A DNA stretch of 42,383 nt from an uncultured Acidimicrobiales bacterium (lineage in GTDB: Bacteria > Actinomycetota > Acidimicrobiia > Acidimicrobiales > SZUA-35): NCBI GenBank assembly GCA_937976305.1, contig CALJSB010000030.1:1-42383 (forward strand), given 5' to 3'. Shown here piece after piece: positions 23,678 to 39,101 of this stretch. Position 1 is the first letter of the stretch. Every line of letters begins with the position of its first letter. A program made the position numbers and the translations under genes. The notes beneath the pieces were generated by a model. The model saw only the letters and a list, made by a program, of their open reading frames with translations. It searched no databases and was not told the DNA's origin.

Positions 23678-24889
23678 CTAGTTCCGGGGTAGTTCCTTGA
23701 ACGGCGTCTCTTTTGCTGGGCCAGGTTCACGGGGAAGACCGAGCGCTCGTTCGCCGAGTGTGTTGCGCTGAATCTCATCCGTGCCGCCGCCGAGACTCAT
23801 GCCTCGGCAGTTGAGGATGTGATAGGCGAAGTAGTCCTCGTCGATTGCTCGCGGTGAGCCGTCGTCAGACCACGCCGGCGATGCCGGGAAGGCGAGTCGG
23901 GCCGCAGTGTCGGCGGCTGCCCGGCCCTGAATGGTCCGCCACAGCTTCCCGATCGACGGATGGACCCCTGTTTTCTTCAGGTAGCCCATGATCGTTTCGC
24001 CGGTGTAGAGCCGGGCCAGCTCTTGCCGGGTCACGGGGTCGTCGAGCTGGTTGCGATCGCGCGCCAATTCGATGAGTTGATCGACCGGTATCGGGACTCG
24101 GCCGGCCTTGGATCGCTGCCCGCTCGAGCCCCCAACGGAAGCGACACCGGTTTGGACTCGCTCGTGCGCGAGCAGCGCGACGGCAGTGCGCCAACCGCCG
24201 TTGACGTCGCCAACAACCCATGTCTTTGGGATGCGGGCCTCGTCGATGAACACTTCGTTGAATTCGGCCTCGCCCGTCATCTGGACAAGGGGACGAACCG
24301 TGACGCCGTCTTGCTCGACAGGGAGCACAAACATCGTGACACCACGATGTTTCGGTGCATCGAAGTCGGTTCGGGCCAACAAGATGGCGTACTGACTGTG
24401 CTGGGCTCCCGAGGTCCATACCTTCTGGCCCGTCACCACCCACTCGTCACCGTCGAGGTCGGCACGGGTGGCAAGCCCAGCAAGGTCCGAGCCGGCGCCA
24501 GGCTCGGAATACATCTGGCACCAGATGTCGTCGCCTCGCAGGCCGGGGCGCAAAAAGCGATCCTTGAGTTCGTCAGAGCCGAAGTCTCGGATCGTCGGCA
24601 TCGCCATACCCACGCCGATCCCGAAGACACTGTCTTCCCTCGGGACGAGTCCACGGCTCTCTTCGTTGTAGGCGGCTGCATATTCGGGACCGAGGCCTTG
24701 GCCGCCGTAGTCGGTCGGATAGTCGAGCCCAGTGAGTCCGGCGTCGTAGAGGGCAGCCCGCCACACCTTCGCCCGGTTGAGTTGGCCCACAACACCATCG
24801 AGCACAGTTGGTAGTTCGTTGTCGAAGAACGACCGAACGGCGAGGCGGAATTCGTCGACAGAGGGCGCGTTTTCGGTCACGGCGCACAT
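23678..24889 (-). CDS. acyl-CoA dehydrogenase family protein
   Basis: Three-domain ACAD architecture with a conserved middle beta-domain (WCQMYSEPGAGSDLAGL) and C-terminal catalytic region. Confidence 0.88.
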   Translation of the reverse strand: MCAVTENAPSVDEFRLAVRSFFDNELPTVLDGVVGQLNRAKVWRAALYDAGLTGLDYPTDYGGQGLGPEYAAAYNEESRGLVPREDSVFGIGVGMAMPTIRDFGSDELKDRFLRPGLRGDDIWCQMYSEPGAGSDLAGLATRADLDGDEWVVTGQKVWTSGAQHSQYAILLARTDFDAPKHRGVTMFVLPVEQDGVTVRPLVQMTGEAEFNEVFIDEARIPKTWVVGDVNGGWRTAVALLAHERVQTGVASVGGSSGQRSKAGRVPIPVDQLIELARDRNQLDDPVTRQELARLYTGETIMGYLKKTGVHPSIGKLWRTIQGRAAADTAARLAFPASPAWSDDGSPRAIDEDYFAYHILNCRGMSLGGGTDEIQRNTLGERALGLPREPGPAKETPFKELPRN

Positions 24890-25032
24890 TATCCCGGCGG
24901 GTTCAGCGAGCGAAAAGTCGCTCGGTCAAGGTGAGCCTGGTGGTGATGCAAAACATGCCCCATGGTCTCCTAGCGCGCCTCGTTGTACTCTTGCGCTTGC
25001 GCTCGACGGAGCGGAGGGAAAAGGTGAGGTTC

Positions 25033-25884
25033 ATGATTCGTCCACTGAAGCTGATCGCTGCGGCACTCTTGGCTGCGCTGATGGCGGCAACCTCGTTGGT
25101 CGCACCAACGCCGGCTTCTGCCGAGGGGCAGACACTGCCGCTTTCTGAATGCCCGTGGTTGACCGACCCGGTCGTCCGTCTCTACAGCGCCTATTTCCTA
25201 CGGGCTCCCGATCCGGGGGGTTTTGAGTTCTGGGTGGGGCGCGTCGACGAAGGTCAAAGTCTCGACGACATCTCGGACTTCTTCTCACAGGGCGAGGAGT
25301 TCGAGACCTTGTACGGCGACAAGACCAACGCCGAGTTTGTGGAGCTGATCTACCAGAACGTGCTCGAGCGTGCACCCGACCAAGGCGGCTTCGACTTCTG
25401 GTCAGGCCAACTCGATCAGGGTTTGATGACCCGTGGCCGCGTGATGCGGAACTTCTCCGAGAGTCCCGAGTTCGTCACCAAGACCGACACCAACCTGCCG
25501 CCCGCTGGCTTCTTCTCGACCTTCCCGTCCGGCACCGAATTCACCTGCGGCCGAGGTGGTGTCGTTGTCCCGTACGTTCAGTCACCGTCTTCGTGGTTTG
25601 TCTTGTTTGCGCCCCCCGGTGACGGCAGCGTGTGGCGGACCTTTGTCCACCCGATCGCGTCAAACGGTGAGTTCCTCGGTGATCCATCTCCGAGCCTCCA
25701 GGAAAACGACATCGATGCCTTCCGTTTGCACATCGGGTTCATGCCGGTGCGTGGCAACTTCTTGCAGGTCGGGCTGGCCGAAGACGATCTGCAGCTCTGG
25801 TCTGTCGTCGAGGTCGAGGGCAAGTTCGCATGCGATGCCCTCACCGACACCTGGGCCAACAACCCCTGCGGCATCAACCCGTAG
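25033..25884 (+). CDS. secreted protein with DUF4214 repeats (paralog of 5806..6702)
   Basis: AAGGTGAGG RBS, then ATG at 25033. Signal peptide MIRPLKLIAAALLAALMAATSLVAPTPASAEG. Repeats RLYSAYFLRAPDPGGFEFWV and LIYQNVLERAPDQGGFDFWS. Confidence 0.8.
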   Translation: MIRPLKLIAAALLAALMAATSLVAPTPASAEGQTLPLSECPWLTDPVVRLYSAYFLRAPDPGGFEFWVGRVDEGQSLDDISDFFSQGEEFETLYGDKTNAEFVELIYQNVLERAPDQGGFDFWSGQLDQGLMTRGRVMRNFSESPEFVTKTDTNLPPAGFFSTFPSGTEFTCGRGGVVVPYVQSPSSWFVLFAPPGDGSVWRTFVHPIASNGEFLGDPSPSLQENDIDAFRLHIGFMPVRGNFLQVGLAEDDLQLWSVVEVEGKFACDALTDTWANNPCGINP

Positions 25885-27699: not shown

Positions 27700-28368
27700 G
27701 TGATTGTGGGAAGACTGATTGAGGTGTCGTTGGGGTTCCCGACGGTCATTTTCACGACGCTCCTGCTCATCTCGCTCGGCTATTGGGTGATCGCAGCCTT
27801 CTCCGGAAACATCGATCTCGAAATCGATGCCGATGTCGGCGATGTCGGCACAGATGTTGGTGATGTCGGCGCAGACGGCGCCGGTGCTGATGGCGGTGGC
27901 TTCCTCGGCAATTTGCTTCAGAGTTTCGATCTGCACCACATGCCGATCACGGTCGTCATCACGGTCATCTCCCTCTTTGGCTGGGTCAGTTCGGGAATCG
28001 TCACGACACTCGCCGTGACAAATGGCGGGAGCGCCGGGATTCTCGTCGGCGTCTTCATTGCGCTCGGCGCCTTCGTCTTCTCGATCTTCATGGCCGGCCG
28101 AGTCGGCCGTATGTTGCGACCGTTCTTCGTGGCTGCGCTGCCGGTTCGGCGTGCCGATCTCATTGGCCGTATCTGCACCGTTCGCACCGGCAGGGTCGAC
28201 AAGTCATTCGGGCAGGCCGAGGTGAACGACGCCGAAAAGGCCGCCCACACCATTCAAGTTCGCTGCGCCGTCGACAACGAGTTGGTGGCAGGAAGCCAGG
28301 CTCTCATTGTGGATGTCGACAAAGAGGGGCGATTCATCGTCTCACCCGATGTCGACGGGCTCGTGTAG
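27700..28368 (+). CDS. NfeD-like (YqiJ/YuaF-type) membrane protein with C-terminal OB-fold
   Basis: N-terminal TM helices, an acidic DVGDVG repeat loop, further TM helices, then an NfeD-type beta-barrel tail (ICTVRTGRVDKSFGQAEVND ... IQVRCAVDNELVAGSQALIVDVDKEGRFIVSP). Confidence 0.75.
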   Translation: MIVGRLIEVSLGFPTVIFTTLLLISLGYWVIAAFSGNIDLEIDADVGDVGTDVGDVGADGAGADGGGFLGNLLQSFDLHHMPITVVITVISLFGWVSSGIVTTLAVTNGGSAGILVGVFIALGAFVFSIFMAGRVGRMLRPFFVAALPVRRADLIGRICTVRTGRVDKSFGQAEVNDAEKAAHTIQVRCAVDNELVAGSQALIVDVDKEGRFIVSPDVDGLV

Positions 28369-28454: not shown

Positions 28455-30371
28455 ATGTCCGGTGTTCTAGCCTTCGTAGTCGGCCTTGTGGTGATCGTTC
28501 TGGTCATCATTTTGCTGGTCGCGTTCGTCATTTCTCAGCTGTACCGCAAGGTGCCGCAGGGCAAGGCGCTCGTTGTCAGCACGACCCGCAACGTCGTTGT
28601 GTCGTTCACTGGTCGGACTGTTGTTCCGATCTTTCACAAAGCCGAGATCATGGACATCTCGGTCAAGACCATCGAGATTGACCGCCGCGGTACGGAGGGC
28701 CTGATCTGTCAGGACAACATCCGCGCCGACATCAAGGTCAACTTCTTCGTCCGAGTCAACAAGGCCGAGGAAGACGTCATCAAGGTCGCGCAGGCCATCG
28801 GCTGCGAGCGTGCCTCTGACCCGGTCACGCTCGAAGAGCTTTTTGCTGCGAAGTTCTCTGAAGCGTTGAAGACCGTCGGTAAGGCCATGGACTTCGTCTC
28901 GCTGTACACCGAGCGAGCATCGTTCCGCGATCGCATCATCGAAGTGATCGGCACCGACCTCAACGGCTACGCCCTCGAAGACGTTGCGATCGACTACCTC
29001 GAGCAAACGCCGCTCGAGCAACTCGACACCAACAACATTCTCGATGCCCAGGGCATCCGCAAGATCACCGAGCTCACCGCCGTCGAGCACGTCGCCACCA
29101 ACAACGCGGCGAACGACGAAGCCAAGATGATCACGGCAAAGAACGTCGAGACCCGTGAGGCCGTGCTTGAGCTCGAGCGCCAGCAGGCCGACGCCGAGGC
29201 CCGTCAACGTCGTGAGGTCGAGGCCGTGCGCGCTCGTGAGCAGGCAACGATTGACACGATCAAGGCCGAGGAGAAGCTGCGGGCCGAGATGGCCAATCTC
29301 GAGACCGACCAGAAGCTCGGCATCGAACAAGAGAACCTTCAGCGAGAGGTCGAGGTCGCCGGGAAGAACCGCGAGCGAGTGCTTGCCGTTGAGGCCGAGC
29401 GCGTTCGCAAGGCAGCCGAGCTCGAGGACATGAGCCGTCGCGTTGAGACACTCGCCGCCGAAAAGGCGCTCGAAGAAGAGAAGAGCACGATTGCCGACAT
29501 TCGCCGCAACCGAGTGGCTGTCGACAAGACCGTGGCTGAACAAGAAGAAGCCATCGCCACACTGCGAGTTGTCGAAGAGGCAAACCGTCAGCGCGACGCC
29601 GTTGTGATCGAGGCGGAGGCCATCGCCCAGGGTGATCTCGTCAAGGACATCAAGGCAGCCGAAGCAGCCGAGACGGCAGCAACGCATGAGGCAAAGCGTC
29701 AGCTCACGCTGGCTCAGGCCACGATGGAGTCGTCTGATCTCGAGGCCAGGGCCAAGATCCGTATGGCTGAAGGTGTGAAGGCTGAGGAGGCGGCACAAGG
29801 TCTCGCCGAAGTCGACGTGATGACCGCCCGGGCCGACGCTGAAGAGAAGCTCGGCATGGCCGAAGTCAATGTCGATCTGGCCAAGGCCGGCATCATCCGC
29901 GAGCAGGGTACAGCCGAGGCCGAGGCCGTCGAGGCCAAGCTCAAGGGCGAAGCAGCGGGTCTCCACGACAAGGCTGCCGCCATGAAGGAACTCGAAGGAG
30001 TCGGCCAGGAGCACGAGGAGTTCATCCGCAACCTCGAAGCTGAGACCAAGGTCCGCCTGGCCCAAGTCGATGCCAACGTTGGTGTGGCCACGGTGCAGGC
30101 CGAAGCCATGAAGTCCGGCCTCGAGAGTGCCGACATCGACATCGTCGGTGGTTCGGACATCTTTGTCGATCGGATCATCGGGGCCATTGGCCATGGCAAG
30201 GCAGTCGACGGGTTCGTCGAGAACTCCGAGCTCGCAACAACGGCCCTGGCTCCGTACGCCAGCGGTGACGAAGACCTCGTCGCCAAGATTGCCGAAGCCA
30301 TTTCCGGCCTTGGAGCCGACGGCATCCGCGATCTCTCCGTCGCCGACCTGCTTCGTCAGATCGGCAAGTAG
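28455..30371 (+). CDS. flotillin-family SPFH/band-7 protein (YqiK/FloT-like)
   Basis: N-terminal TM, an SPFH domain (QGKALVVSTTRNVVVSF ... ISVKTIEIDRR ... IRADIKVNFFVRV), and a very long E/A/K/R-rich coiled-coil flotillin region. Confidence 0.88.
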   Translation: MSGVLAFVVGLVVIVLVIILLVAFVISQLYRKVPQGKALVVSTTRNVVVSFTGRTVVPIFHKAEIMDISVKTIEIDRRGTEGLICQDNIRADIKVNFFVRVNKAEEDVIKVAQAIGCERASDPVTLEELFAAKFSEALKTVGKAMDFVSLYTERASFRDRIIEVIGTDLNGYALEDVAIDYLEQTPLEQLDTNNILDAQGIRKITELTAVEHVATNNAANDEAKMITAKNVETREAVLELERQQADAEARQRREVEAVRAREQATIDTIKAEEKLRAEMANLETDQKLGIEQENLQREVEVAGKNRERVLAVEAERVRKAAELEDMSRRVETLAAEKALEEEKSTIADIRRNRVAVDKTVAEQEEAIATLRVVEEANRQRDAVVIEAEAIAQGDLVKDIKAAEAAETAATHEAKRQLTLAQATMESSDLEARAKIRMAEGVKAEEAAQGLAEVDVMTARADAEEKLGMAEVNVDLAKAGIIREQGTAEAEAVEAKLKGEAAGLHDKAAAMKELEGVGQEHEEFIRNLEAETKVRLAQVDANVGVATVQAEAMKSGLESADIDIVGGSDIFVDRIIGAIGHGKAVDGFVENSELATTALAPYASGDEDLVAKIAEAISGLGADGIRDLSVADLLRQIGK

Positions 30372-30374
30372 CCG

Positions 30375-33300
30375 GTGAGCGACGCCTCTTCGGAAGCATC
30401 GGCTGATCCGCCGGGTGGCGGAGACGTCGGTGCCCCTGGCGAAGAACCTGCTGCCTCCAGCGGTGAGGCTGGCCAAGGCCAGATCGCACAGGGAACCTAT
30501 GAGCTCCTCCGCGGTCGACTCTCGACTGCGGCCAGCGAGTTGGTCAAGCGCGCCAATGCCCTGAACGACGAGCGGCTCGGTGTCTTTGGATCGTCCAAGC
30601 TCGAGTTGGTTGCCACTGAACGGGTGAGGACCGAGTCAAACGCCGTCCCTCGCGATGTCGTGTCGGTCGGCGATCAGTTGGTGCTGGCCTACAACGTGGC
30701 GGCGGGCATCAAGGCCGAGACGCGATCTGAAGACGTCTTCGCGGTGCATCACCTCGAGTTGGGTGATGGCCCAACCGACATCACGTTCAGCCCCAATCCT
30801 GAGGGCCTGGTCGGCTCTGTCCTGGCTGATGATCAGTTTCATCGTGACTTCGACGAGCTCTACACCTATTTCAAGGAGGCCAACCTTCAGCAGCTGTATC
30901 GCACCGCGCAACGAATGCTTGCGGTGTTCCGTACCGGCGGTGGGGCCAACGACGTTCGAGTGCTGCGGTGGCAGATCGAAAACGACGGGTCGCTCCGCTA
31001 CCTCGACGCCCGCGGCGAGCGAGATCACCGCTTTCCCGCCAACCAAGATGTTGAGTGGACCCTCACGACACGGGCCGAACACGTCGGTGGCCGCCACATC
31101 GAGATCGGCGACCGCATCATGGTCAACCCGCTCGGCGGCTCGCTCGACATCCGCCTCGACGACGGCGGCGAAGGCACCCTCCTTCTGAGCGACCGTCTCG
31201 AGCACGCCGACCAATCGCTCGCCGATTGTCAGATCAGCTGGGCCAAGGCCGGCGATCTTCGCCTCATCGACGTGTTGCCCTACGGCGAAACCCAGCACCG
31301 GTACTACATCGTCAACATGCTGGTGCACTCCGCCGTGCGGATGGATGCCCTTGGTGAGGCGTTCCGCCAGCTGCCAGACAATCAGGGCATCATCTTTCCC
31401 GACGGCGTCTATCTGAAGACGGGAGAGGTGCGCACGTTCGACCTCGCGGTCGACGAGATGGAACTGCTTGAGGTCGTGCGCTCGCCCAACGGCGAGGACG
31501 TCATGTATGTGTTCCACGAACGGATGGGTGGCCGCTCGATCCTGCTGCCCTACAACGTCGTGCGCCAAGAGGTCGCGGCGCCCATCTGGTGTCATGGTCA
31601 CTCACTCTTCGACGACGGCACGATGGTTGTGTTTCGAGAAGAGCCAGAGCCAACGACGATTCACCCACTGCAGATCTGGGTGACGCCATTTTCGAGCGAC
31701 GAGTGGTACGCCGCCCAACCTCGTGAGGCTACGAAGTTCGATCGCATTGGTAACGCCTCGTTGGTCAACGGCATCGCTGATGCGCTGGCCCTCGGCCGAC
31801 TGGTATCTGAAGTCGAGCCATCCACCGCCGTCTACGCCGACGTTCTGGCGTCCACCGGGCGGTTCATCGACGCTCACCATTGGGCAGCCGACGACGCAGT
31901 TGGCAACTTGGCCGAGCCGGCCAACGACATTCGCCTTGTTGCCGAGCAAGTCATCGACGAGTTCGAGCGGCTGCAAGAGGTGCAGGCCTCAGCTGCGGCG
32001 ACCTTGGCCGAAGCAAGCGAAGAAACCGAGCGGACCCTCGAGGATCTCCGCCTCAGCCCACCGAAGACCACCGAGGGATACATCGACGGTTTGGCCGACA
32101 TTCGCCGCCGCATCGGTCACCTGCACACCATTCGCGAACAGCGCGAGATTGATCTGGTTCGCGTTGACGAACTCATTGGTTCGGCCGAGACGGCCTACAA
32201 CGATCTGGCCCAATCTGCTGCCGCCCACCTCTCGACTGACAACGCGTTCGTTCCCTATCACGAGCGGTTGACAGAGATCTCCAACCAGACACCAAACCTT
32301 CTCTCGTCGCTCGAAGCAACTGAGCTGATGGACGAGGTCGACGCCGTCGCCGAATCCATGGATCTCGTCGCCGGCACCGTCGGCGACTTGGTCGTCGAAG
32401 ACCCGCGAGTCCGAACCTCCGTGCTCGAACAGGTCTCCGGCGTGCTGGCCGAGCTGAACCGTGTCCGGGCCGGGGCGGAAGGCAAGCGCGAAGAACTCGT
32501 GCAGTCAGAAACGGGTGCGGCCTTTGCCACTGAGCTCGGCTTGTTCGGCCAGTCGATTGCCGCCGCGGTCGGACGGGCCGACACGCCCGAAGCGTGCGAC
32601 GAAGCCCTCGCTCGCCTGCTCCTCCAGCTCGAGCAACTCGAAACCGCAGGCCCTCGGACCGAGGCGCAGCTCGACGAGTTGAACCAACGACGCGATCAGG
32701 TCACCGAAGCGCTTTCAGGTCGCCGGCAGCAACTGGTCGACGAACGCCAGCAGCGAGCCGAACGTTTGGTGTCCGCAGCCGACCGCACGCTCGTGCGCGT
32801 GGGGGAGCGAGCGCAAACGCTCGACTCTGTCGACGATGTCAACGGCTTCTATGCCGCCGACCCCATGGTCGCCCGCGTTCGCAAGCTGGTCGACGATCTT
32901 CGTGAGCTTGGCGAGCCTGTTCGAGCCGACGAGCTGCAGTCGAAGTTGGGGGCATCTCGCGACAATGCAGCCCGAGCGCTGCGAGATCGCCAAGATCTCT
33001 TTGATGGCGAAGCGGTCAAGCTCGGCCGTCATCGCTTCAGCGTCGATGACCGTGCCCGCGAACTCACCATCGTCCCGAGCGGCGAGCAACTCAACGCGGT
33101 GCTCACGGGTACTGATTTGCGCCTCCCCGTCACCGGCCCAGGACTCGACAACCTCAAAGAACTGTGGGATCAGCCACTGTCGTCAGAAAGCCCCGAGCTC
33201 TACCGATCGGCCTTCCTGGCCGGTGATCTGCTGCTCGACACGCTGCACGGCGGTGCCGACCCCGAACGAGACGAAGCCATCAGAACTGCGCTTCGCAACG

Positions 33301-35924
33301 AGGATGCCGATGCGATCCTCCGAATCGTGCGGGCCGAGGTCGACAACCGCCTCGACGAGGGATACGACCGAGGTGTCCACGACCTCGACGCAGCCCGCAT
33401 TCTCGAGGGCTTCGGAGCCGTCGCTCACGTGGCAGACACCCTGACGGCAACGAGCTCGACCAGAGCGGCCGCCCAGATTGCGTGGGCCCACCGCTTCTCT
33501 GACCACCAGCGTGATCGCTGGACCGACCGAGGACGGGCTGGAGCCACGCTGGGCCTCGACAAGGCCACCGTCGCCGAGCTCACTGAGGAACTGGCCGCTG
33601 ACTTGGCCCGGACCTCTGACGCTGAAGCTGAGGTGGCGATCGCTGATCGTCTGGTCGCCCGCTACCTGATGGCCGAGTTGCTGAACCCCGATGGTTTGGC
33701 GTTTGCCCAGACGCGGGCCGCATCGGAGCTCACCGACCGGTTCGCATCGTCGCCAGATGTGCGGGCCCTCGTCGACGGAATGGACGACGATCTCGGCGGT
33801 GTCACGACGGTGCTTGCCGACTACGTGAGCCGCGAAGTGCGCGACGTCGAGAGCCATCTGATCGATGAGATCGTCGCCGCACTTGTCACTCCTGATCTTC
33901 CCCGTCGCATTGTCGATGTCGAGCTCGCCGTGTCGGTCGACGGACTGATCGGCCGTCACGTCACGTTCGAAGCTGGCACGCTCGCTGATCGAGTCGATGG
34001 CCTACTCGAAACAGTCGACCGCCATCGGCTGGCAACGCTCCCTGCTCACCGAGCGTTTGCGGCGGCTCGTCGCGAAGCGCTCGATGATGTGAAAGACACC
34101 CTGCGTGTCGACGAGCTCGAGCCTCGGGTGCCCGAGGGCTTTGTTCGTAACCAACTGATCGACCAGGTGTATCTGCCGCTCATCGGCGACAACTTGTCCC
34201 GCCAGATCGGCACCGTTGACGATCGCACGGGCGCCCGATCTGGCCTGTTGATGTTGCTGTCGCCCCCGGGCTACGGCAAGACCCTGCTTGTTGAATACCT
34301 CGCCGATCGCCTCGGCATGGCCTTGGTCAAGGTGTCTGGCCCAGGTTTGGGTCACGACGTCACGTCGCTCGACCCCGGCCAGGCGCCGAGCGCGACTGCA
34401 GCCCGCGAGATCGAACGCATCAACTTGTCATTCGCCGTTGGCACCAACGTGATCCTCTACCTCGACGACATTCAGCACACCAACGCTGAGTTTCTCCAAC
34501 GGTTCATTGCCCTCTGTGATGCGCAACGGCGAGTCGAGGGTGTGTGGAACGGTGAGTCGACCTCGTTCGACCTGCGAGGCAAACGCTTCGCCGTCGTCAT
34601 GGCCGGCAACCCCTACACCGAGTCGGGTGAGCGGTTCCGCGTGCCGGACATGCTGGCCAACCGAGCCGACACCTACAACCTCGGTGACGTGCTCGAAGGC
34701 AACGCTGATCTGTTCGCCAAGAGCTATCTCGAGAACGCCCTCAGCTCGAACCCGGTGCTGGCGCCACTTGTCGGCACCGACCCTGGCGATCTCGAACGCT
34801 TCTTCCGTGCCGCCGACGGCGAGCCGCTCGACGAGTCGTCGCTCAAGCAGAGCTACTCGTCCGCTGAAGCCAACGAGATCGTCTCGGTGTTGCGTCACCT
34901 GCGCCAGGTGCAAGAGGTCGTTCTCACGGTGAACCGTCAGTACATCGCTTCTGCCGCCAGTGCAGATGCCTATCGGACCGAACCGCCGTTCCTCCTGCAG
35001 GGCTCGTACCGAAACATGGCGCGGATGGCATCCAAGCTGCTGCCCGCGATGACCGCCGAAGAGGTCGATCGGATCATCGATGAGCACTACACCGCAGAAT
35101 CGCAAGCGCTCACGGGTGCCGCGGAATCAAACCTGCTGAAGCTTGCTGAGATGCGGGGAACGATGACGGACGAGCAGCGAGCTCGCTGGGACGACATCTT
35201 GTCGACCTTCCGTCGTCAGCAGCGAATGGGTGGCGACGAGCGAGATCCAGCCACGCGGGTGGTTGCGGCCATCGAAAACGTGGCTGAGGCGCTCGGCAAT
35301 CCGGCATTGGCCGCCGCCAGTGCTCCAGCCCCGCCGCCTGAGCCCGAGCAGGTCGAGAAAGCAGAGCCAGTAGATCCGCCGCCTCCACCACAGATCGTGA
35401 TGCCGCCGATCGAGATGCCTCCCGTGGTGATTCCACCAATCGAGGTCAACGTCAACGCGCCTGAAACCGGAACTGACCCGGCCGCGGCTGCGGCGATGAT
35501 CTCCGCCATCGAGCGAGTGGCTGATGCTCTCAGCATGCAGGAGCCGCTTGCGGCCCGAGCCATCGACCTGCTCGCGTCTGAAGCGTCGAAGCGACGTGGG
35601 GGCGCCCGCGCTGCGAGCGTCGGGCCGTCTGTGCCCCCTCGACCGCCGGTGCCTCGGCCGCAGTCGTCAACCAGAGATCCGATTCGAGCGGCATCAGAGG
35701 CGCAGCCACCGTCGCAGAAGGCGGTAGCCAAACGGGCGGCTGCAAAGAAGCCGACCAAGGCCGCAGGCCATCGCATTGCTGCGAATCGTCGGGCCTCGGC
35801 GCCGCCGCAGCCGCCGCAGCAGTTCCGTCGGGACCACAAGCCAATGTCGCCAAAGCCTCCGGCACCGCCGGGGAGTGGGAAGCCTCCTCAAAAGCCGAAG
35901 GCGAAGAAGCCTCCGGCTGAGTAG
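30375..35924 (+). CDS. giant (1849 aa) protein of unknown function with an AAA_5 (MoxR/McrB/dynein-like) ATPase module near residues 1180-1340 and a Pro/Lys-rich C-terminal tail
   Basis: GTG start 3 nt after the flotillin stop. Walker A LLSPPGYGKT, Walker B ILYLDDIQ, and sensor/Arg-finger-like MAGNPYTESGERFRVPDMLANRAD. About 1150 aa of N-terminal sequence that I cannot assign. Tail contains PPPPPQIVMPPIEMPPVVIPPIEV and KPPAPPGSGKPPQKPKAKKPPAE. Confidence 0.85.
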   Translation: MSDASSEASADPPGGGDVGAPGEEPAASSGEAGQGQIAQGTYELLRGRLSTAASELVKRANALNDERLGVFGSSKLELVATERVRTESNAVPRDVVSVGDQLVLAYNVAAGIKAETRSEDVFAVHHLELGDGPTDITFSPNPEGLVGSVLADDQFHRDFDELYTYFKEANLQQLYRTAQRMLAVFRTGGGANDVRVLRWQIENDGSLRYLDARGERDHRFPANQDVEWTLTTRAEHVGGRHIEIGDRIMVNPLGGSLDIRLDDGGEGTLLLSDRLEHADQSLADCQISWAKAGDLRLIDVLPYGETQHRYYIVNMLVHSAVRMDALGEAFRQLPDNQGIIFPDGVYLKTGEVRTFDLAVDEMELLEVVRSPNGEDVMYVFHERMGGRSILLPYNVVRQEVAAPIWCHGHSLFDDGTMVVFREEPEPTTIHPLQIWVTPFSSDEWYAAQPREATKFDRIGNASLVNGIADALALGRLVSEVEPSTAVYADVLASTGRFIDAHHWAADDAVGNLAEPANDIRLVAEQVIDEFERLQEVQASAAATLAEASEETERTLEDLRLSPPKTTEGYIDGLADIRRRIGHLHTIREQREIDLVRVDELIGSAETAYNDLAQSAAAHLSTDNAFVPYHERLTEISNQTPNLLSSLEATELMDEVDAVAESMDLVAGTVGDLVVEDPRVRTSVLEQVSGVLAELNRVRAGAEGKREELVQSETGAAFATELGLFGQSIAAAVGRADTPEACDEALARLLLQLEQLETAGPRTEAQLDELNQRRDQVTEALSGRRQQLVDERQQRAERLVSAADRTLVRVGERAQTLDSVDDVNGFYAADPMVARVRKLVDDLRELGEPVRADELQSKLGASRDNAARALRDRQDLFDGEAVKLGRHRFSVDDRARELTIVPSGEQLNAVLTGTDLRLPVTGPGLDNLKELWDQPLSSESPELYRSAFLAGDLLLDTLHGGADPERDEAIRTALRNEDADAILRIVRAEVDNRLDEGYDRGVHDLDAARILEGFGAVAHVADTLTATSSTRAAAQIAWAHRFSDHQRDRWTDRGRAGATLGLDKATVAELTEELAADLARTSDAEAEVAIADRLVARYLMAELLNPDGLAFAQTRAASELTDRFASSPDVRALVDGMDDDLGGVTTVLADYVSREVRDVESHLIDEIVAALVTPDLPRRIVDVELAVSVDGLIGRHVTFEAGTLADRVDGLLETVDRHRLATLPAHRAFAAARREALDDVKDTLRVDELEPRVPEGFVRNQLIDQVYLPLIGDNLSRQIGTVDDRTGARSGLLMLLSPPGYGKTLLVEYLADRLGMALVKVSGPGLGHDVTSLDPGQAPSATAAREIERINLSFAVGTNVILYLDDIQHTNAEFLQRFIALCDAQRRVEGVWNGESTSFDLRGKRFAVVMAGNPYTESGERFRVPDMLANRADTYNLGDVLEGNADLFAKSYLENALSSNPVLAPLVGTDPGDLERFFRAADGEPLDESSLKQSYSSAEANEIVSVLRHLRQVQEVVLTVNRQYIASAASADAYRTEPPFLLQGSYRNMARMASKLLPAMTAEEVDRIIDEHYTAESQALTGAAESNLLKLAEMRGTMTDEQRARWDDILSTFRRQQRMGGDERDPATRVVAAIENVAEALGNPALAAASAPAPPPEPEQVEKAEPVDPPPPPQIVMPPIEMPPVVIPPIEVNVNAPETGTDPAAAAAMISAIERVADALSMQEPLAARAIDLLASEASKRRGGARAASVGPSVPPRPPVPRPQSSTRDPIRAASEAQPPSQKAVAKRAAAKKPTKAAGHRIAANRRASAPPQPPQQFRRDHKPMSPKPPAPPGSGKPPQKPKAKKPPAE

Positions 35925-35935
35925 CAACCCTCGAC

Positions 35936-36532
35936 CTACGAGGCAGGCTCGTTGTCTGGCCACCAAAACGAGAATTCGACCATCCAGCGTTCGTCGAACG
36001 CTCTGCGGTCGATGATGGTGATGTACGCCTCGTAGCGGCGCACGATGTCGGTGCTTCCGACCTCTTGCGCCGTTCCGCCTGCGATGTCGCCCATGGTGAC
36101 GGCACCGGTGTTGTTGGTCGAGGTAACGAGCAACGCTCGGCGATCGGTACTTGGCTCGCCAGCAAAGAACTCGTCGATCGGTTCGCGTTCGTAGGTGAAG
36201 GCGGCGGCGTCGGCCCAGGACGAGACGATGTCGAGGACCTCGTCGGTCGACACGTCGAACTCGGCAAATCTGACGGCCCGCAACGTGTCGGTGTTCGTTG
36301 CTGGATCGGTCACGATGGGGCGGACCTGTTCGGCGGTCAGGGTCACGGAGAACTCGGCGTCCATGATGATCGTGACGGTCGAGTCGTAGTAGGTCTGCGG
36401 TACGTCGCTGAAACTGTCGTCGGCGATGATCGACTGTTGCCCTTCTGAGAAGTCCCAGGTGGCAACGACCGAGGGCCGTGATGAGCAGGCCGCCGCCAAC
36501 AGGCACACGAGCAACCCGACTCGCTTCACCAC
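35936..36532 (-). CDS. hypothetical lipoprotein
   Basis: GTG start. Signal plus lipobox VKRVGLLVCLLAAACSS. The listed ORF is over-extended upstream. Stop lies 11 bp from the giant gene stop, and the start overlaps the ilvA-like stop. Confidence 0.6.
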   Translation of the reverse strand: MVKRVGLLVCLLAAACSSRPSVVATWDFSEGQQSIIADDSFSDVPQTYYDSTVTIIMDAEFSVTLTAEQVRPIVTDPATNTDTLRAVRFAEFDVSTDEVLDIVSSWADAAAFTYEREPIDEFFAGEPSTDRRALLVTSTNNTGAVTMGDIAGGTAQEVGSTDIVRRYEAYITIIDRRAFDERWMVEFSFWWPDNEPAS

Positions 36533-37725
36533 TCGAGCAACTTCGCGCTGATGCCAGCGTCGATCAGCTTCTGCAGAACCGTTTCGGCATGGGCTCGGTC
36601 GAGCGTGTCGATGCGCAGCTCGAGGATGGCGCTGCGGGCACCGGTTGAGCCGAGACCATCGTGATCGACCTGCACCACGTTTGCTGCGGCGTCGGAGATC
36701 ACCTTCGAAACAAGGGCGAGCCCGCCGGGTGTGTCGTCGAGTTCGACCCACACGCGGTTGAGGCGTCCCTGATTGGCAAGGCCTCGGACGGCGACCACTG
36801 AAAGGGTGCGGGGGTCGATGTTGCCGCCACACAGCACCAGGCCGACCTTCTTGCCGGCGAATCGGTCGCTGTGTTGCATACAGGCGGCGAGCGCGGCAGC
36901 GCCCGCCCCTTCGACGACGGTTTTTTCGATCTCGAGCAACATGGCGATTGACTCTTCGATTGCCGCCTCGGTGACCACAAGCATCTCGACGTCGTGCTCA
37001 GCCAAGATGGCGCTCGTGAGCTTGCCCGGTTGGGTGACGGCGATGCCGTCGGCCACGGTTGATCCGGCAACGGCGGTCGTTGCTCTGCCAGCAAGAAGAT
37101 CGGCCATTGATGGATAGCGCTCGGTCTGGACACCGATGACGTCGACGGGTGTGTCGTGTGCTGCTGCGGCCACGGCTAAGCCAGAGGCCAGCCCGCCACC
37201 ACCAACAGCAGCAACGATGACGTCGAGATCGGGTTGCTGGTCGAGCATCTCGACTCCGAGGGTTCCTTGCCCGGCGATCACAACCTCGTCATCGAAGGGA
37301 TGGATGAACTCGAGGTCGCGCTCGATCGCCAGCTCTCTTGCTCGTACGGCAGATTCCATCACGTCGGCTCCGGCCAACTCGACGGTGGCCCCGAGGTCAC
37401 GAGTTCGTGCCACCTTCACGAATGGTGTGTTGTCGGGCATCACGATCGTGGTCTCAATACCGAGCAGGGTTCCGTGGTGGGCCACACCTTGGGCGTGGTT
37501 CCCGGCCGACATGGCGATGACGCCGCGACCCGGTTTGACATCGAGCAGCCGGTTACGGGCCCCTCGACCCTTGAACGAGCCGGTGTACTGAAGGTTCTCA
37601 AACTTCAGGTAGAGCTCGGTCCCTGCAATTTCTGAGAGGGTCTGGCAGTGGTTCAGCGGTGTCTCGATGAGCGCTCCAGCGATTCGATCGCGAGCACGCA
37701 GAATGTCGTCGATGGAGACGGTCAT
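36526..37725 (-). CDS. ilvA: threonine ammonia-lyase (threonine dehydratase), PLP-dependent
   Basis: PLP lysine motif FENLQYTGSFKGRGA, glycine-rich loop (AAVGGGGLASG), and a C-terminal regulatory-like domain. ATG at 37725 (MTVSIDDIL). Confidence 0.85.
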   Translation of the reverse strand: MTVSIDDILRARDRIAGALIETPLNHCQTLSEIAGTELYLKFENLQYTGSFKGRGARNRLLDVKPGRGVIAMSAGNHAQGVAHHGTLLGIETTIVMPDNTPFVKVARTRDLGATVELAGADVMESAVRARELAIERDLEFIHPFDDEVVIAGQGTLGVEMLDQQPDLDVIVAAVGGGGLASGLAVAAAAHDTPVDVIGVQTERYPSMADLLAGRATTAVAGSTVADGIAVTQPGKLTSAILAEHDVEMLVVTEAAIEESIAMLLEIEKTVVEGAGAAALAACMQHSDRFAGKKVGLVLCGGNIDPRTLSVVAVRGLANQGRLNRVWVELDDTPGGLALVSKVISDAAANVVQVDHDGLGSTGARSAILELRIDTLDRAHAETVLQKLIDAGISAKLLEW

Positions 37726-37755
37726 TGCGCCGAGGCTAGCCAGCCCCAGGAGCGG

Positions 37756-38454
37756 GCCATGACCAGCCAGCGGCCATGGGCCAAGCCAACGACGGTAAAC
37801 ACAGTGTTGGCGCCAACCAGGCATGCTCTAGGCGTGACTACAACCGGAGCCATCAAGGCCGTCATCTTCGACATGGGCGGGGTGCTCGTCGAGCTCGGTC
37901 CGCTGACCGAGATCCTGGGCGACAACGCCTCACTCAGCGAGCAGGAGTTCTGGAATCGCTGGTTGGCCAGCCCATCGGTGCGGGCATTTGAGATGGGGGA
38001 GTGCGACGTCGAGACATTTGGAAAGCGCCTGGTCGCCGAACTCGAGGTGGCAATGACCCCCGACGAGTTCGTTCAGCGGTTTGCCGCTTGGCCCAAGGGC
38101 CTCATGCCCGGAGCAGCAGAGCTTGTTGCCTCTCTGCGAGGGCGAGTCGAGCTCGGGGTGCTGAGCAACACCAACGCGCTGCACTGGGAGCAACAGCGAG
38201 ATGGCGAGATCATGCGGTCGATGTTCGACCGGCAGTTTCTCTCCTATGAGATGGGTCTGGCCAAGCCCGACCGAGCCATCTTTGATGCGGTCGCAGCTGA
38301 ACTCGGCTGTGTCTCGTCAGAGATTCTGTTTCTCGACGACAATGAGATCAACGTCGATGGAGCGAGAGCTGCTGGCTGGCAAGCCGAAGTGACCAAGGGT
38401 GTCGACGCCGCCGCCGCCGCGGTTGCCGATTTCGTTGAGAGCTACTCGACGTAG
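37756..38454 (+). CDS. HAD-superfamily hydrolase
   Basis: Motif I VIFDMGGVL and motif IV LFLDDNEINVDGA. Start chosen at the internal ATG (MTSQRPW); the listed ORF begins at 37648. Confidence 0.75.
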   Translation, partial: AMTSQRPWAKPTTVNTVLAPTRHALGVTTTGAIKAVIFDMGGVLVELGPLTEILGDNASLSEQEFWNRWLASPSVRAFEMGECDVETFGKRLVAELEVAMTPDEFVQRFAAWPKGLMPGAAELVASLRGRVELGVLSNTNALHWEQQRDGEIMRSMFDRQFLSYEMGLAKPDRAIFDAVAAELGCVSSEILFLDDNEINVDGARAAGWQAEVTKGVDAAAAAVADFVESYST

Positions 38455-39101
38455 ACGCCGCGGCGAGTGGTGAGCGTGGTGCCTCCGGGGCAGTTGAACT
38501 GTTCCAGCACTGCGCCCTCCATTGTTTCTACGTCTTGGGCCGATGCCGCGACGCTCACGGATTGGCCGCGCTCTGCAGGGGCGGTGTCGGAGAGTACTTC
38601 TGACTCGCCCCCGTATCCGAGGCTGGAAACGTTGAACGTACACGTGGCCTTGAGCGCCTCAATAGCATCTGAGCAGGGTGCAACGGCATCGGTGATCTCG
38701 ACCGATCCGCTGATTCCAACGTCGGGGCAACCCAGCGCGCTGCCATCTGCGGGGATCGAAGCCGGCGTCACAGGGCTCCTTCGAGTTGAGTCTCCACCCG
38801 TAGACGTATCGGCGGGTGCCTCGGTGGAGTCGCCTGTGCTGGCTTCTGTAGTACCCCGGGGAGTGGTGCGTACCGGGCAGTCGCTGCCCGAACAAAGCAA
38901 CATATTCGGCGACGCTGTTGGCAACAGTGGCATTGCGGCTTCTTGTTCAGCCTCCGCGGCGGCGCCGAGCTCGGTGACAATCGTTGTTTCAGCGGTCATC
39001 AAGACCGTCTGCACCGCGAGGACAGCCAATGCCGCCCCGATTGCCAACCACATGCCAACGCCAATGCGCTGCGCCAATCCCGCCGTGTTCCCGTCCCGCA
39101 T
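38442..39101 (-). CDS. membrane-anchored secreted hypothetical protein (Ser/Thr-rich linker, Cys-containing C-terminal domain)
   Basis: N-terminal TM/signal (MWLAIGAALAVLAVQTVLM), a T/S/A/E-rich low-complexity segment, and 8 Cys in the C-terminal 130 aa. Confidence 0.5.
   Translation of the reverse strand: MRDGNTAGLAQRIGVGMWLAIGAALAVLAVQTVLMTAETTIVTELGAAAEAEQEAAMPLLPTASPNMLLCSGSDCPVRTTPRGTTEASTGDSTEAPADTSTGGDSTRRSPVTPASIPADGSALGCPDVGISGSVEITDAVAPCSDAIEALKATCTFNVSSLGYGGESEVLSDTAPAERGQSVSVAASAQDVETMEGAVLEQFNCPGGTTLTTRRGVYVE

What the first reader, a model, noticed from the sequence alone, without database searches (positions are those of the whole stretch)
30375..35924. Architecture of the giant protein: large unassigned N-terminus, late AAA_5 module, Pro-rich and basic K/P tail
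The Walker A/B and arginine-finger region sits about two-thirds of the way through the protein. The last about 250 aa are low-complexity: PPIE-type proline repeats followed by a lysine/proline-rich basic tail resembling H1-like nucleic-acid or envelope-binding tails. I recognise no signal peptide or TM segment. The N-terminal ORF was not interrupted by stops in any of about 1150 codons despite extreme GC, so it is under coding constraint.
Basis: seen in the sequence. Interest (0 to 1): 0.6.

Follow-up and report, generated by a model that had tools for sequence, protein, structure and literature searches.

The report
Giant flotillin-operon AAA+ ATPase
The 1849-residue protein is an intact member of a widespread but experimentally unstudied bacterial family (beta-propeller, helical bundles, one AAA+ ATPase) whose gene, wherever the upstream DNA could be read, follows a membrane-scaffold (flotillin) gene; only its proline-rich, basic tail is peculiar to this lineage.

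Summary
The ORF at 30375-35924 (+) is real, intact and not a fusion. It aligns end to end (aa ~40-1640) with homologues in at least 592 species genomes from several phyla.

The N-terminus is not unassigned. Pfam gives DUF3686 (E 7e-156) and DUF7902, and AlphaFold models a beta-propeller, long helical bundles and a helical domain.

The single AAA+ module starts at 70% of the length. Its motifs are invariant, though Walker B reads DD rather than DE. Its fold is closest to MoxR-type NorQ/CbbQ and to RuvB.

A YqiJ/NfeD-like membrane protein gene and a YqiK-type flotillin gene precede the ATPase gene here and in 77 of 77 related loci that include upstream DNA. Ravi et al. 2024 already described this module computationally. 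No experimental study was found, and the database name 'DNA repair ATPase' has no support I could find.

The most likely role is a cytoplasmic ATP-driven remodeller working on or through the flotillin/NfeD membrane scaffold. This is inferred, not shown.

The ~200-aa tail is lineage-specific. It is a disordered Pro-rich spacer, a conserved helix pair and a basic end, under weak purifying selection. It resembles histone H1 only slightly.

This is a new member of a known kind, of moderate interest.

The parts
27700..28368 (+). First gene of the module: a 222-aa membrane protein with three hydrophobic segments and a C-terminal OB-like domain, YqiJ/YuaF (NfeD)-like.
   Evidence: Translation. Pfam YqiJ_OB is below threshold (16.9 bits against 25.4). 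A profile of 16 orthologues against E. coli YqiJ gives hhalign prob 78.8, E 1.6e-5 over 137 columns. It is found upstream of the flotillin gene in 62 (tblastn) to 71 (clustering) of 80 loci.
28455..30371 (+). Second gene: a 638-aa YqiK-type flotillin with an N-terminal TM helix, an SPFH region and a long Ala/Glu-rich coiled coil.
   Evidence: Translation. A profile of 21 orthologues against E. coli YqiK gives hhalign prob 99.9, E 1.3e-32 over 420 columns. It is 43% identical to the pQBR103 'SPFH domain-containing protein'. It lies immediately upstream on the same strand in 77/80 loci; the other 3 have too little upstream DNA (15-375 bp). A single-sequence search finds no Pfam or NCBIfam hit.
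30375..35924 (+). Third gene: the 1849-aa beta-propeller, helical-bundle, AAA+ ATPase (PGAP name 'DNA repair ATPase'). Its GTG start lies 3 nt after the flotillin TAG stop.
30375..30491 (+). aa 1-39: variable, disordered N-terminal extension.
   Evidence: pLDDT 31-44. Only 8% mean identity across 80 genomes.
30537..31880 (+). aa 55-502: DUF3686. A helix (aa 41-71) precedes a beta-propeller-like domain (strands aa 77-436).
   Evidence: Pfam PF12458, E 7.1e-156, full model length. AlphaFold pLDDT is about 85-95. Foldseek matches WD40-type propellers: DCAF1, Vps18, YncE, Sec12 (E 3e-5 to 2e-4). There are 42 invariant positions across 80 genomes.
31752..32999 (+). aa 460-875: long antiparallel helical bundles (spectrin- or talin-like). 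This region includes DUF7902 (aa 623-707, nt 32241-32495).
33012..33134 (+). aa 880-920: small beta domain.
   Evidence: Strands at 880-919 in the model, with low-confidence loops at 880-894.
33204..33887 (+). aa 944-1171: all-helical domain, the least conserved part of the core.
   Evidence: Model. 28% mean identity. dN/dS 0.10-0.18.
34227..34694 (+). aa 1285-1440: AAA+ core. Walker A is at nt 34260-34283, Walker B (DD) at 34455-34478, sensor-1 at 34599-34622, and PDMLANR(1430)AD at 34644-34670. A beta-hairpin sits between Walker B and sensor-1.
   Evidence: Pfam AAA 25.9 bits and AAA_5 23.4 bits, both above their cut-offs. pLDDT is about 90 and the hairpin is E207-220 in the model. Foldseek hits are RuvB, NorQ/CbbQ (TM by target 0.5-0.63), MCM and FtsH. 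69 of 156 positions are invariant across 80 genomes. dN/dS 0.02-0.05.
34695..35318 (+). aa 1441-1648: lid and C-terminal helical domain. It ends in the family's terminal helix RVVAAIENVAEAL and includes the invariant QGSYR(1546)NM.
35319..35921 (+). aa 1649-1849: lineage-specific tail. It comprises a Pro-rich spacer with MPPIE/IPPIE repeats (nt 35376-35447), a helix pair MISAIERVADALSMQEPLAARAIDLLASEA (nt 35496-35585), a basic Pro/Ala/Lys/Arg segment (nt 35601-35921), and a conserved end motif PPxPPxx[FY]RR[DQ]xKP...PPAPPGSG[KR] (nt 35802-35888).
   Evidence: Disordered (pLDDT <50) except for helices at aa ~1702-1742. The family median is 107 aa after QGSYRNM, against 301 here. dN/dS is 0.16-0.23 for the tail and 0.04-0.12 for the helix pair, and all indels are in frame. 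In 1.84e9 representative proteins only 3 hits were found: two are fragments of the same family's C-terminus (P0121, P0123) and the third is a 76-aa protein carrying the same helix motif, not examined further.

Best explanation
**Shown**
- The ORF encodes an intact member of the DUF3686 family. Its architecture is a beta-propeller, helical bundles and one AAA+ ATPase. PGAP names the family 'DNA repair ATPase'.
- It is the third gene of a conserved, tightly packed three-gene module: a YqiJ/NfeD-like membrane protein, a YqiK-type flotillin, then the ATPase.

**Inferred**
- The protein is a cytoplasmic ATP-driven remodeller, probably ring-forming like other AAA+ proteins. It works on or through the flotillin/NfeD scaffold on the inner face of the membrane.
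- The propeller and helical bundles would dock it to the scaffold or to client proteins. The MoxR-like motor, with an invariant loop after strand beta-2 (GPxLGHxVTSxDP), would assemble, disassemble or extract proteins. This would form part of an envelope-stress system that in Gammaproteobacteria is fused to a YjfI-PspA operon.
- The ~200-aa tail is an add-on found only in a small Acidimicrobiia clade. It consists of a flexible polyproline spacer, a duplicated and conserved helix pair, and a basic end.
- The tail most plausibly acts as a tether to anionic membrane or to a partner, or folds back on the very acidic core. It is not part of the family's core mechanism.
For: **Family membership**
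- PF12458 E 7e-156, PF25472 E 6.5e-20, and AAA/AAA_5 above their cut-offs.
- More than 1000 homologues, 42-88% identical from end to end in the aligned set.
- At least 592 species genomes carry a relative. The 80 examined come from Actinomycetota, Myxococcota, Gammaproteobacteria, Acidobacteriota and others.

**Operon**
- A flotillin homologue lies directly upstream on the same strand in 77/77 loci that include upstream DNA. An NfeD-like gene is present in 62-71 of 80 loci. No fourth gene is shared widely.
- The flotillin stop and the ATPase start are 3 nt apart.
- The flotillin profile matches E. coli YqiK at 99.9% probability. The NfeD-like profile matches YqiJ at 78.8%.
- E. coli yqiJK and Shewanella SO1376/77 have no ATPase gene. 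The scaffold therefore exists without the ATPase, while the ATPase was never seen without the scaffold.

**Link to membrane stress**
- On pQBR103 the order is YjfI, PspA, rhomboid..., NfeD-like, SPFH, ATPase, all on one strand.
- PspA and/or YjfI lie upstream in 5 gammaproteobacterial loci. A rhomboid gene lies downstream in 4.
- Ravi et al. [quoted passage not shown]

**Motor**
- The model is confident. Foldseek places it nearest NorQ/CbbQ (MoxR) and RuvB.
- 69 core positions are invariant, including the Walker motifs, N1412 and R1430.

**Location**
- The protein has no TM segment, so it is cytoplasmic or peripheral.

**Tail**
Against: - No experiment on any family member was found. The function rests on gene neighbourhood and fold alone.
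- Physical contact between the ATPase and flotillin was not modelled or tested.
- Walker B carries Asp-Asp instead of the canonical Asp-Glu, so fast ATP hydrolysis is not assured.
- MoxR-type motors usually work with a VWA-domain partner. None is present in the operon.
- Oligomeric state is unknown.
- The window contains no PspA gene among the ORFs scanned.
- A basic tail could equally bind nucleic acid.
Confidence: 0.6

Rival explanations
1. It is what its database name says: a DNA repair ATPase acting on DNA, with the basic K/P tail as a DNA-binding element.
For: - The PGAP and Pfam names are 'DNA repair ATPase' and 'ATPase involved in DNA repair'.
- The motor resembles RuvB and MCM among others.
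- The helical region gives a weak SMC-like LmuB hit (E 7e-4).
- The tail is basic, net +19.
- A Shewanella yqiK-type flotillin mutant showed raised spontaneous mutation (PMC1468410).
Against: - No paper supports the name.
- The LmuB hit lies in a generic helical-bundle region.
- The fold hits are equally good for non-DNA motors such as NorQ, CbbQ and FtsH.
- Both operon partners are membrane proteins in every locus. No nuclease, helicase or recombinase gene is shared.
- The basic tail is missing from more than 95% of the family, and the core is strongly acidic at -114.
- The Shewanella authors attribute the mutator effect to iron leakage. That operon has no such ATPase.
Confidence: 0.07
2. It is an unfoldase or extractase that feeds membrane proteins held in the flotillin microdomain to a separate protease. 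This would be a soluble counterpart of FtsH inside HflK/C, or of archaeal NfeD-protease with stomatin.
For: - SPFH scaffolds are known to partner AAA proteases (HflK/C with FtsH, prohibitin with m-AAA), as cited.
- FtsH is among the fold hits.
- A rhomboid intramembrane protease gene lies immediately downstream in 4 gammaproteobacterial loci and within the pQBR103 operon.
- The loop after strand beta-2 is invariant, as expected for a substrate-engaging pore loop.
Against: - The protein has no protease domain and the three-gene core has no protease gene.
- No rhomboid gene was seen next to the gene in the window or in the close Acidimicrobiia relatives whose neighbourhoods were read. Rhomboid homologues were found only in gammaproteobacterial loci.
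- The putative pore loop has no aromatic residue.
Confidence: 0.15
3. It is a MoxR-type maturation chaperone for a soluble or membrane enzyme unrelated to flotillin, and the gene linkage reflects only co-regulation.
For: The best structural matches are the MoxR proteins NorQ and CbbQ (TM 0.5-0.63). AAA_5 is above its cut-off.
Against: - There is no VWA partner or candidate client enzyme in the conserved neighbourhood.
- Linkage in 77/77 loci across phyla, with a 3-nt intergenic gap, points to more than co-regulation.
- About 1250 residues of propeller and helical bundles have no counterpart in MoxR proteins.
Confidence: 0.08
4. It is the ATPase of an anti-phage or conflict system.
For: Large multidomain NTPases with propeller and coiled-coil sensors are common in conflict systems (PMC7159879, listed). 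The family occurs on megaplasmids.
Against: - PADLOC gives no significant hit for any of the three proteins.
- There is no match in 50,697 phage records.
- The window neighbourhood is housekeeping metabolism: pyruvate kinase, threonine ammonia-lyase, acyl-CoA enzymes.
- The protein carries no effector domain.
Confidence: 0.04

Closest known systems
'Betapropeller + coiled-coil + AAA-ATPase' partner of YqiJ/YuaF and Band-7/flotillin proteins (Ravi et al., mSystems 2024, PMC11237479). Equivalent to Pfam DUF3686/DUF7902 and the PGAP name 'DNA repair ATPase'.
   Same: It has the same domain order and the same three-gene operon. Pfam scores are full length and it is collinear with the family.
   Different: This copy has a ~200-aa Pro-rich and basic C-terminal extension, shared in full only with its nearest relative and in part with a few Acidimicrobiia. 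The window module stands alone, without the CesT/Tir-PspA dyad.
MoxR-class AAA+ ATPases (NorQ, CbbQ, RavA; Pfam AAA_5)
   Same: It has a single AAA+ module with a beta-hairpin before sensor-1. These are the best structural matches: 9qh4, 9qh7, 6l1q, 5c3c.
   Different: It has no VWA partner. About 1250 extra N-terminal residues are present. Walker B is DD. Sequence identity is only 13-16%.
HflK/C-FtsH and prohibitin-m-AAA (an SPFH scaffold with an AAA+ machine)
   Same: An SPFH-family membrane scaffold is genetically coupled to an AAA+ ATPase.
   Different: This ATPase has no TM anchor and no M41 protease domain. The scaffold is a YqiK-type flotillin with an NfeD partner.
Vps4 with ESCRT-III / PspA-associated AAA+ ATPases
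   Same: It is a candidate ATP-driven remodeller of a membrane-bound polymer. In Gammaproteobacteria the module sits in one operon with PspA/IM30.
   Different: Pfam finds no MIT or Vps4_C domain. The AAA clade differs. No PspA gene is present in the window.
E. coli YqiJ-YqiK and B. subtilis YuaF-YuaG(FloT) NfeD-flotillin pairs
   Same: The two upstream genes are homologues of this pair (Hinderhofer 2009).
   Different: Those model operons lack the ATPase gene. The flotillin here belongs to a divergent subfamily that Pfam Band_7 does not detect from a single sequence.

Membership tests
DUF3686 / beta-propeller, coiled-coil, AAA+ family ('DNA repair ATPase') | N-terminal DUF3686 (PF12458) above the gathering score | tested here: met
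   519.6 bits against a cut-off of 25. Model positions 1-448 of 448 are matched.
DUF3686 / beta-propeller, coiled-coil, AAA+ family ('DNA repair ATPase') | Central DUF7902 (PF25472) | tested here: met
   71.6 bits against a cut-off of 26, at aa 623-707.
DUF3686 / beta-propeller, coiled-coil, AAA+ family ('DNA repair ATPase') | Full-length collinearity with family members, including the C-terminal AAA+ module | tested here: met
   tblastn matches cover about aa 40-1640 in 80 loci. The alignments are A1 and the 80-genome alignment.
DUF3686 / beta-propeller, coiled-coil, AAA+ family ('DNA repair ATPase') | Operon with a Band-7/flotillin protein and a YqiJ/YuaF-like membrane protein | tested here: met
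   The gene order in the window is 27700-28368, 28455-30371, 30375-35924.
DUF3686 / beta-propeller, coiled-coil, AAA+ family ('DNA repair ATPase') | A role in DNA repair, as implied by the name | not testable with these tools
   No literature was found. The gene context argues against it.
AAA+ ATPases | Walker A GxxGxGK[ST] | tested here: met
   PPGYGKT at aa 1297-1303, invariant.
AAA+ ATPases | Walker B: a hydrophobic strand ending in an acidic pair, canonically D-E | tested here: inconclusive
   The motif is ILYLDD (D1364-D1365) and is invariant. The catalytic Glu is replaced by Asp throughout the family. Loci were selected using this motif, but the protein hits were not.
AAA+ ATPases | Sensor-1 polar residue and a trans-acting arginine | tested here: inconclusive
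   N1412 and R1430 are invariant and lie at the expected sequence positions. Their geometry in an oligomer was not modelled.
AAA+ ATPases | AAA+ alpha/beta core plus helical lid fold | tested here: met
   The model has pLDDT of about 90. Foldseek probability is 1.00 to RuvB, NorQ, CbbQ, MCM and FtsH. Pfam AAA and AAA_5 are above their cut-offs.
MoxR subfamily proper | Partner protein with a VWA domain encoded nearby | tested here: not met
   No further gene family is shared in the 80 neighbourhoods. It is therefore not filed as a MoxR protein, only as MoxR-like in fold.
This criterion comes from my own knowledge of such tails. | tested here: not met
   In the last 107 aa, K+R is 21%, P 24% and A 19%. 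There is a single AKRAAAKKPTKAAG block and no tandem repeat. That block is absent in L084 and P0121.
FtsH-type AAA protease partner of SPFH scaffolds | TM anchors and an M41 peptidase domain | tested here: not met
   No TM segment and no peptidase domain.
YqiK-type flotillin (the upstream gene) | Homology to E. coli YqiK across the SPFH region and coiled coil, with an N-terminal TM helix | tested here: met
   hhalign prob 99.9, E 1.3e-32, 420 columns. The N-terminal hydrophobic helix is visible in the translation.
NfeD / YqiJ-YuaF family (the first gene) | Multi-TM N-terminal part plus a C-terminal OB-fold domain, encoded next to an SPFH gene | tested here: inconclusive
   hhalign prob 78.8, E 1.6e-5. 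Pfam YqiJ_OB scores 16.9 bits, below its cut-off. Position and topology fit.

The most novel reading that the evidence does not exclude
The family is a dedicated ATP-driven assembly and disassembly machine for bacterial flotillin cages. It would be a functional analogue of Vps4 for ESCRT-III or NSF for SNAREs. The propeller would grip the flotillin C-terminus and the MoxR-like ring would remodel the polymer. In this Acidimicrobiia lineage a polyproline spacer with a basic end would additionally tether the machine to anionic membrane. If so, it would be the first known energy-consuming regulator of a prokaryotic flotillin scaffold.
Probability: 0.3. Interest if true: 0.7.

Novelty: new member of a known kind. 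Interest (0 to 1): 0.33.

Why it matters
What bacterial flotillins actually do is still unclear. A giant, highly conserved ATPase that was never found without a flotillin/NfeD pair is the most obvious unexplored lead on that question. Its AAA core is 69% identical on average across phyla, yet no experimental study was found.

For annotation, the result shows that the widely propagated name 'DNA repair ATPase' has no visible basis. It should be read as 'flotillin-associated AAA+ ATPase'.

The finding itself is not a discovery. The family is in Pfam, and the operon was described computationally in 2024. The only new element is a lineage-restricted disordered tail.

Tried and rejected
- **PADLOC scan of the three proteins:** only a weak LmuB hit in the helical region, so a defence-system reading was rejected.
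- **NCBIfam:** no model matches the ATPase, the flotillin or the NfeD-like protein.
- **PDB by sequence:** only marginal AAA hits (Rpt3, NVL).
- **Flotillin against PDB and Pfam:** the single sequence finds nothing even at E 10. The profile finds only a weak QmcA hit. The question was settled by hhalign against E. coli YqiK.
- **BLASTP of the 222-aa protein against E. coli YqiJ:** not significant. A profile was needed.
- **Foldseek top hit IFT-A (propeller plus helices):** TM is only about 0.1, so the 'protocoatomer-like' idea was not pursued.
- **Promoter and terminator scan:** at chance level.
- **Tandem Repeats Finder on the tail DNA:** no meaningful repeat.
- **Phage collection:** no match.
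- **Literature searches for DUF3686, PF12458 and 'flotillin' plus 'DNA repair ATPase':** zero papers.
- **Tail searched against 1.84e9 representative proteins:** no independent occurrences of the tail module.
- **Fusion artefact:** rejected.
Full report
**1. The observation**

The ORF listing gives a single ORF at 30375..35924 (+), 1849 aa, with a GTG start.

Window GC is 0.628 and the ORF's is 0.640. 'Extreme GC' is therefore wrong. High GC also makes long open frames more likely by chance, not less. The frame is still far beyond chance: with a stop probability of 0.0285 per codon, P(no stop in 1849 codons) is about 6e-24. The longest overlapping ORF in another frame is 321 aa.

The motifs sit as follows:
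- Walker A SPPGYGKT is at aa 1296-1303, which is 0.70 of the length.
- Walker B LYLDDIQH is at aa 1361-1368.
- Sensor-1 MAGNPYTE is at aa 1409-1416.
- PDMLANRAD, with R1430, is at aa 1424-1432.

The highest 19-residue Kyte-Doolittle mean is 1.21, so there is no TM helix or signal peptide.

The C-terminus has 20 Pro in aa 1601-1700. It then turns basic, with net charge +9 in aa 1701-1800 and +9 in aa 1801-1849. Every other 100-aa block is net negative. Overall the core (aa 1-1640) is -114 and the last 107 aa are +19.

**2. The N-terminus is assigned**

Pfam matches DUF3686 (PF12458) at aa 55-502 with E 7.1e-156 over the whole model. It also matches DUF7902 (PF25472) at aa 623-707. AAA and AAA_5 match at aa 1292-1415, both just above their gathering scores.

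An AlphaFold model of aa 1-1200 was built from 41 sequences and has mean pLDDT 83.6. It shows:
- a disordered stretch at aa 1-39;
- a helix at aa 41-71;
- a beta-rich domain at aa 77-436, in four-strand units;
- very long helices at aa 460-875;
- a small beta domain at aa 880-920;
- a helical domain at aa 944-1171.

**3. The AAA+ module and the tail**

The model of aa 1180-1849 has an AAA+ core with pLDDT of about 90. It shows a beta-hairpin between Walker B and sensor-1, then a lid and a helical C-terminal domain running to about aa 1648.

Foldseek against the PDB returns RuvB, the MoxR proteins NorQ and CbbQ (TM normalised by target 0.5-0.63), MCM and FtsH. The fold is thus MoxR-like.

Beyond aa 1649 the model is disordered, with pLDDT below 50. 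The exception is two helices at about aa 1702-1720 and 1724-1742, with pLDDT 51-67.

**4. Not a fusion, and not degenerate**

The protein search gave 1074 hits. Most are 1600-1650 aa, named 'DNA repair ATPase' or 'MoxR-like ATPase', and cover about 87% of the query.

A 16-sequence alignment at 42-88% identity is collinear from about aa 40 to 1640. The Walker motifs, N1412, R1430 and QGSYR1546NM are invariant in it.

The 80 loci kept come from Actinomycetota, Myxococcota, Gammaproteobacteria, Acidobacteriota and others, each matching about aa 40-1640.

Across those 80 genomes:

| Region | Mean identity to the window | Invariant positions |
|---|---|---|
| AAA core | 69% | 69 of 156 |
| Propeller | 46% | 42 |
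| Tail | 5% | 0 |

One oddity is that Walker B is Asp-Asp throughout, not Asp-Glu.

**5. Context**

The flotillin-like gene ends with TAG at 30369-30371, and the GTG start of the ATPase follows 3 nt later.

tblastn of the two upstream proteins against the 80 loci gave clear results:
- The 638-aa protein has a homologue immediately upstream on the same strand in 77 loci. The other three have too little upstream DNA (15-375 bp).
- The 222-aa protein has a homologue in 62 loci.

Clustering all ORFs of the 80 loci found only three widely shared gene families: ATPase in 80 loci, flotillin in 77, NfeD-like in 71. The remaining clusters are shadow ORFs inside those genes.

The 638-aa protein gets no Pfam, NCBIfam or PDB hit as a single sequence. 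A profile of 21 orthologues, however, aligns to E. coli YqiK with hhalign probability 99.9 and E 1.3e-32 over 420 columns that include the SPFH region. It is also 43% identical to the pQBR103 'SPFH domain-containing protein'.

The 222-aa protein has three hydrophobic segments. Its profile aligns to E. coli YqiJ with probability 78.8 and E 1.6e-5.

YqiJ and YuaF are NfeD homologues encoded with YqiK and YuaG (Hinderhofer 2009, PMC2636767). E. coli K-12 yqiJK has no ATPase gene downstream, and neither does Shewanella SO1376/77. The dependence is therefore one-sided.

On plasmid pQBR103 the gene order is YjfI, PspA/IM30, rhomboid, DUF2491, DUF350, DUF1190, GSP-synthase-like, NfeD-like, SPFH, ATPase, all on one strand. 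PspA and/or YjfI lie upstream in five gammaproteobacterial loci, and a rhomboid gene lies downstream in four.

In the window the neighbours are housekeeping genes and no PspA gene was seen.

**6. Literature**

No paper contains DUF3686 or PF12458.

Ravi et al. [quoted passage not shown] They note that it sometimes occurs with CesT/Tir-PspA and that abbreviated versions are widespread. [quoted passage not shown]

No experimental work was found.

**7. The tail**

The family median is 107 residues after QGSYRNM. This protein has 301, so the extension is about 195-200 aa.

The tail has four parts:
- a Pro-rich spacer with MPPIE/IPPIE units; relative L083 has one more unit;
- a helix pair, MISAIERVADALSMQEPLAARAIDLLASEA;
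- a basic Pro/Ala/Lys/Arg stretch;
- an end motif, PPxPPxx[FY]RR[DQ]xKP...PPAPPGSG[KR].

The helix pair and end motif are shared with L083, L084 and P0121. The Lys/Ala block is absent from L084 and P0121.

In relatives such as P0123 and P0020 the family's terminal helix runs straight into '...LQDPLAARAIDLLAS'. Here the AIExVAxAL helix is therefore duplicated, with the Pro-rich spacer between the two copies.

dN/dS against L083 by region:

| Region | dN/dS |
|---|---|
| AAA region | 0.019 |
| Propeller | 0.073 |
| Whole tail | 0.16 |
| Helix pair | 0.04 |
| Basic part | 0.24 |

All indels are in frame. The tail is therefore coding and weakly constrained.

A search of aa 1690-1849 against 1.84e9 representative proteins found three hits. 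All match the helix pair. Two are fragments of the same family's C-terminus (P0121, P0123). The third, P0122, is a 76-aa protein carrying the same helix motif and was not examined further.

The H1 comparison is weak. K+R is 21% of the last 107 aa and there is no tandem repeat.

**8. Mechanism**

Shown: family membership, the domain plan, a conserved motor and obligate linkage to a flotillin/NfeD pair.

Inferred: a cytoplasmic AAA+ remodeller that docks through its propeller and helical bundles and acts on the flotillin scaffold or its clients in an envelope-stress setting. The tail would be a lineage-specific tether or regulatory appendage.

The rivals considered were DNA repair, an extractase feeding a protease, a MoxR-type chaperone for an unrelated client, and anti-phage defence. 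Each is weighed in its own section. PADLOC and the phage collection gave nothing.

**9. Verdict**

This is an ordinary, intact member of a family that is known from sequence but uncharacterised experimentally.

Noticed in passing
window 31587-31589 (codon 405); locus L087: A sister contig is 99.85% identical over window 28623-38924 with no indels. It carries TAG instead of TGG at the conserved W405, which splits the gene into 404 aa and 1433 aa. The 15 SNPs in the gene cluster at codons 80-110 and 400-410. This is either a nonsense allele in the population or a consensus error from strain mixing.
   Followed up: partly
L081/L086 (pQBR103 84437-97641); L044, L062, L070, L073, L079, L080: In Gammaproteobacteria the three-gene module is extended. 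YjfI (CesT-like) and PspA/IM30 lie upstream, and a rhomboid protease gene lies directly downstream of the ATPase gene. On pQBR103 the rhomboid gene lies within the operon. This was not seen in the window or in the close Acidimicrobiia relatives examined.
   Followed up: partly
window 34455-34478: Walker B reads LYLDDIQH. The usual catalytic Glu is Asp in every family member examined, an invariant non-canonical feature whose effect on hydrolysis is unknown.
   Followed up: partly
window 28455-30371: The flotillin partner is not detected by Pfam Band_7/Flot, NCBIfam or a PDB sequence search, even at E 10. Only a profile built from orthologues links it to YqiK. It belongs to a divergent flotillin subfamily that accompanies the ATPase.
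   Followed up: yes
window 28467-30476 (-): A 669-aa ORF lies antisense to the whole flotillin gene. It is very likely a shadow ORF caused by GC-rich, Ala/Glu-rich coiled-coil coding. Similar antisense ORFs recur in the related loci.
   Followed up: partly
window 5806-6702 (-) and 24808-25884 (+): Two separate proteins carry DUF4214 domains (E about 6e-26 each).
   Followed up: no
window 19407-20990 (+): A 527-aa ORF with no Pfam match has a Pro/Thr-rich linker near its C-terminus (aa ~465-524). It is the only other Pro-rich stretch in the window.
   Followed up: no
window 35936-36832 (-) and 36526-37824 (-): Two long minus-strand ORFs overlap downstream of the ATPase gene. In relatives the corresponding genes are a 197-203-aa protein without a Pfam match and a 399-aa threonine ammonia-lyase, so both window ORFs probably start later than listed.
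   Followed up: partly
window 17759-19294 (-): A 511-aa Ser/Thr protein kinase (Pkinase, E 6e-41) lies about 8 kb upstream of the module. No link to the module was examined.
   Followed up: no
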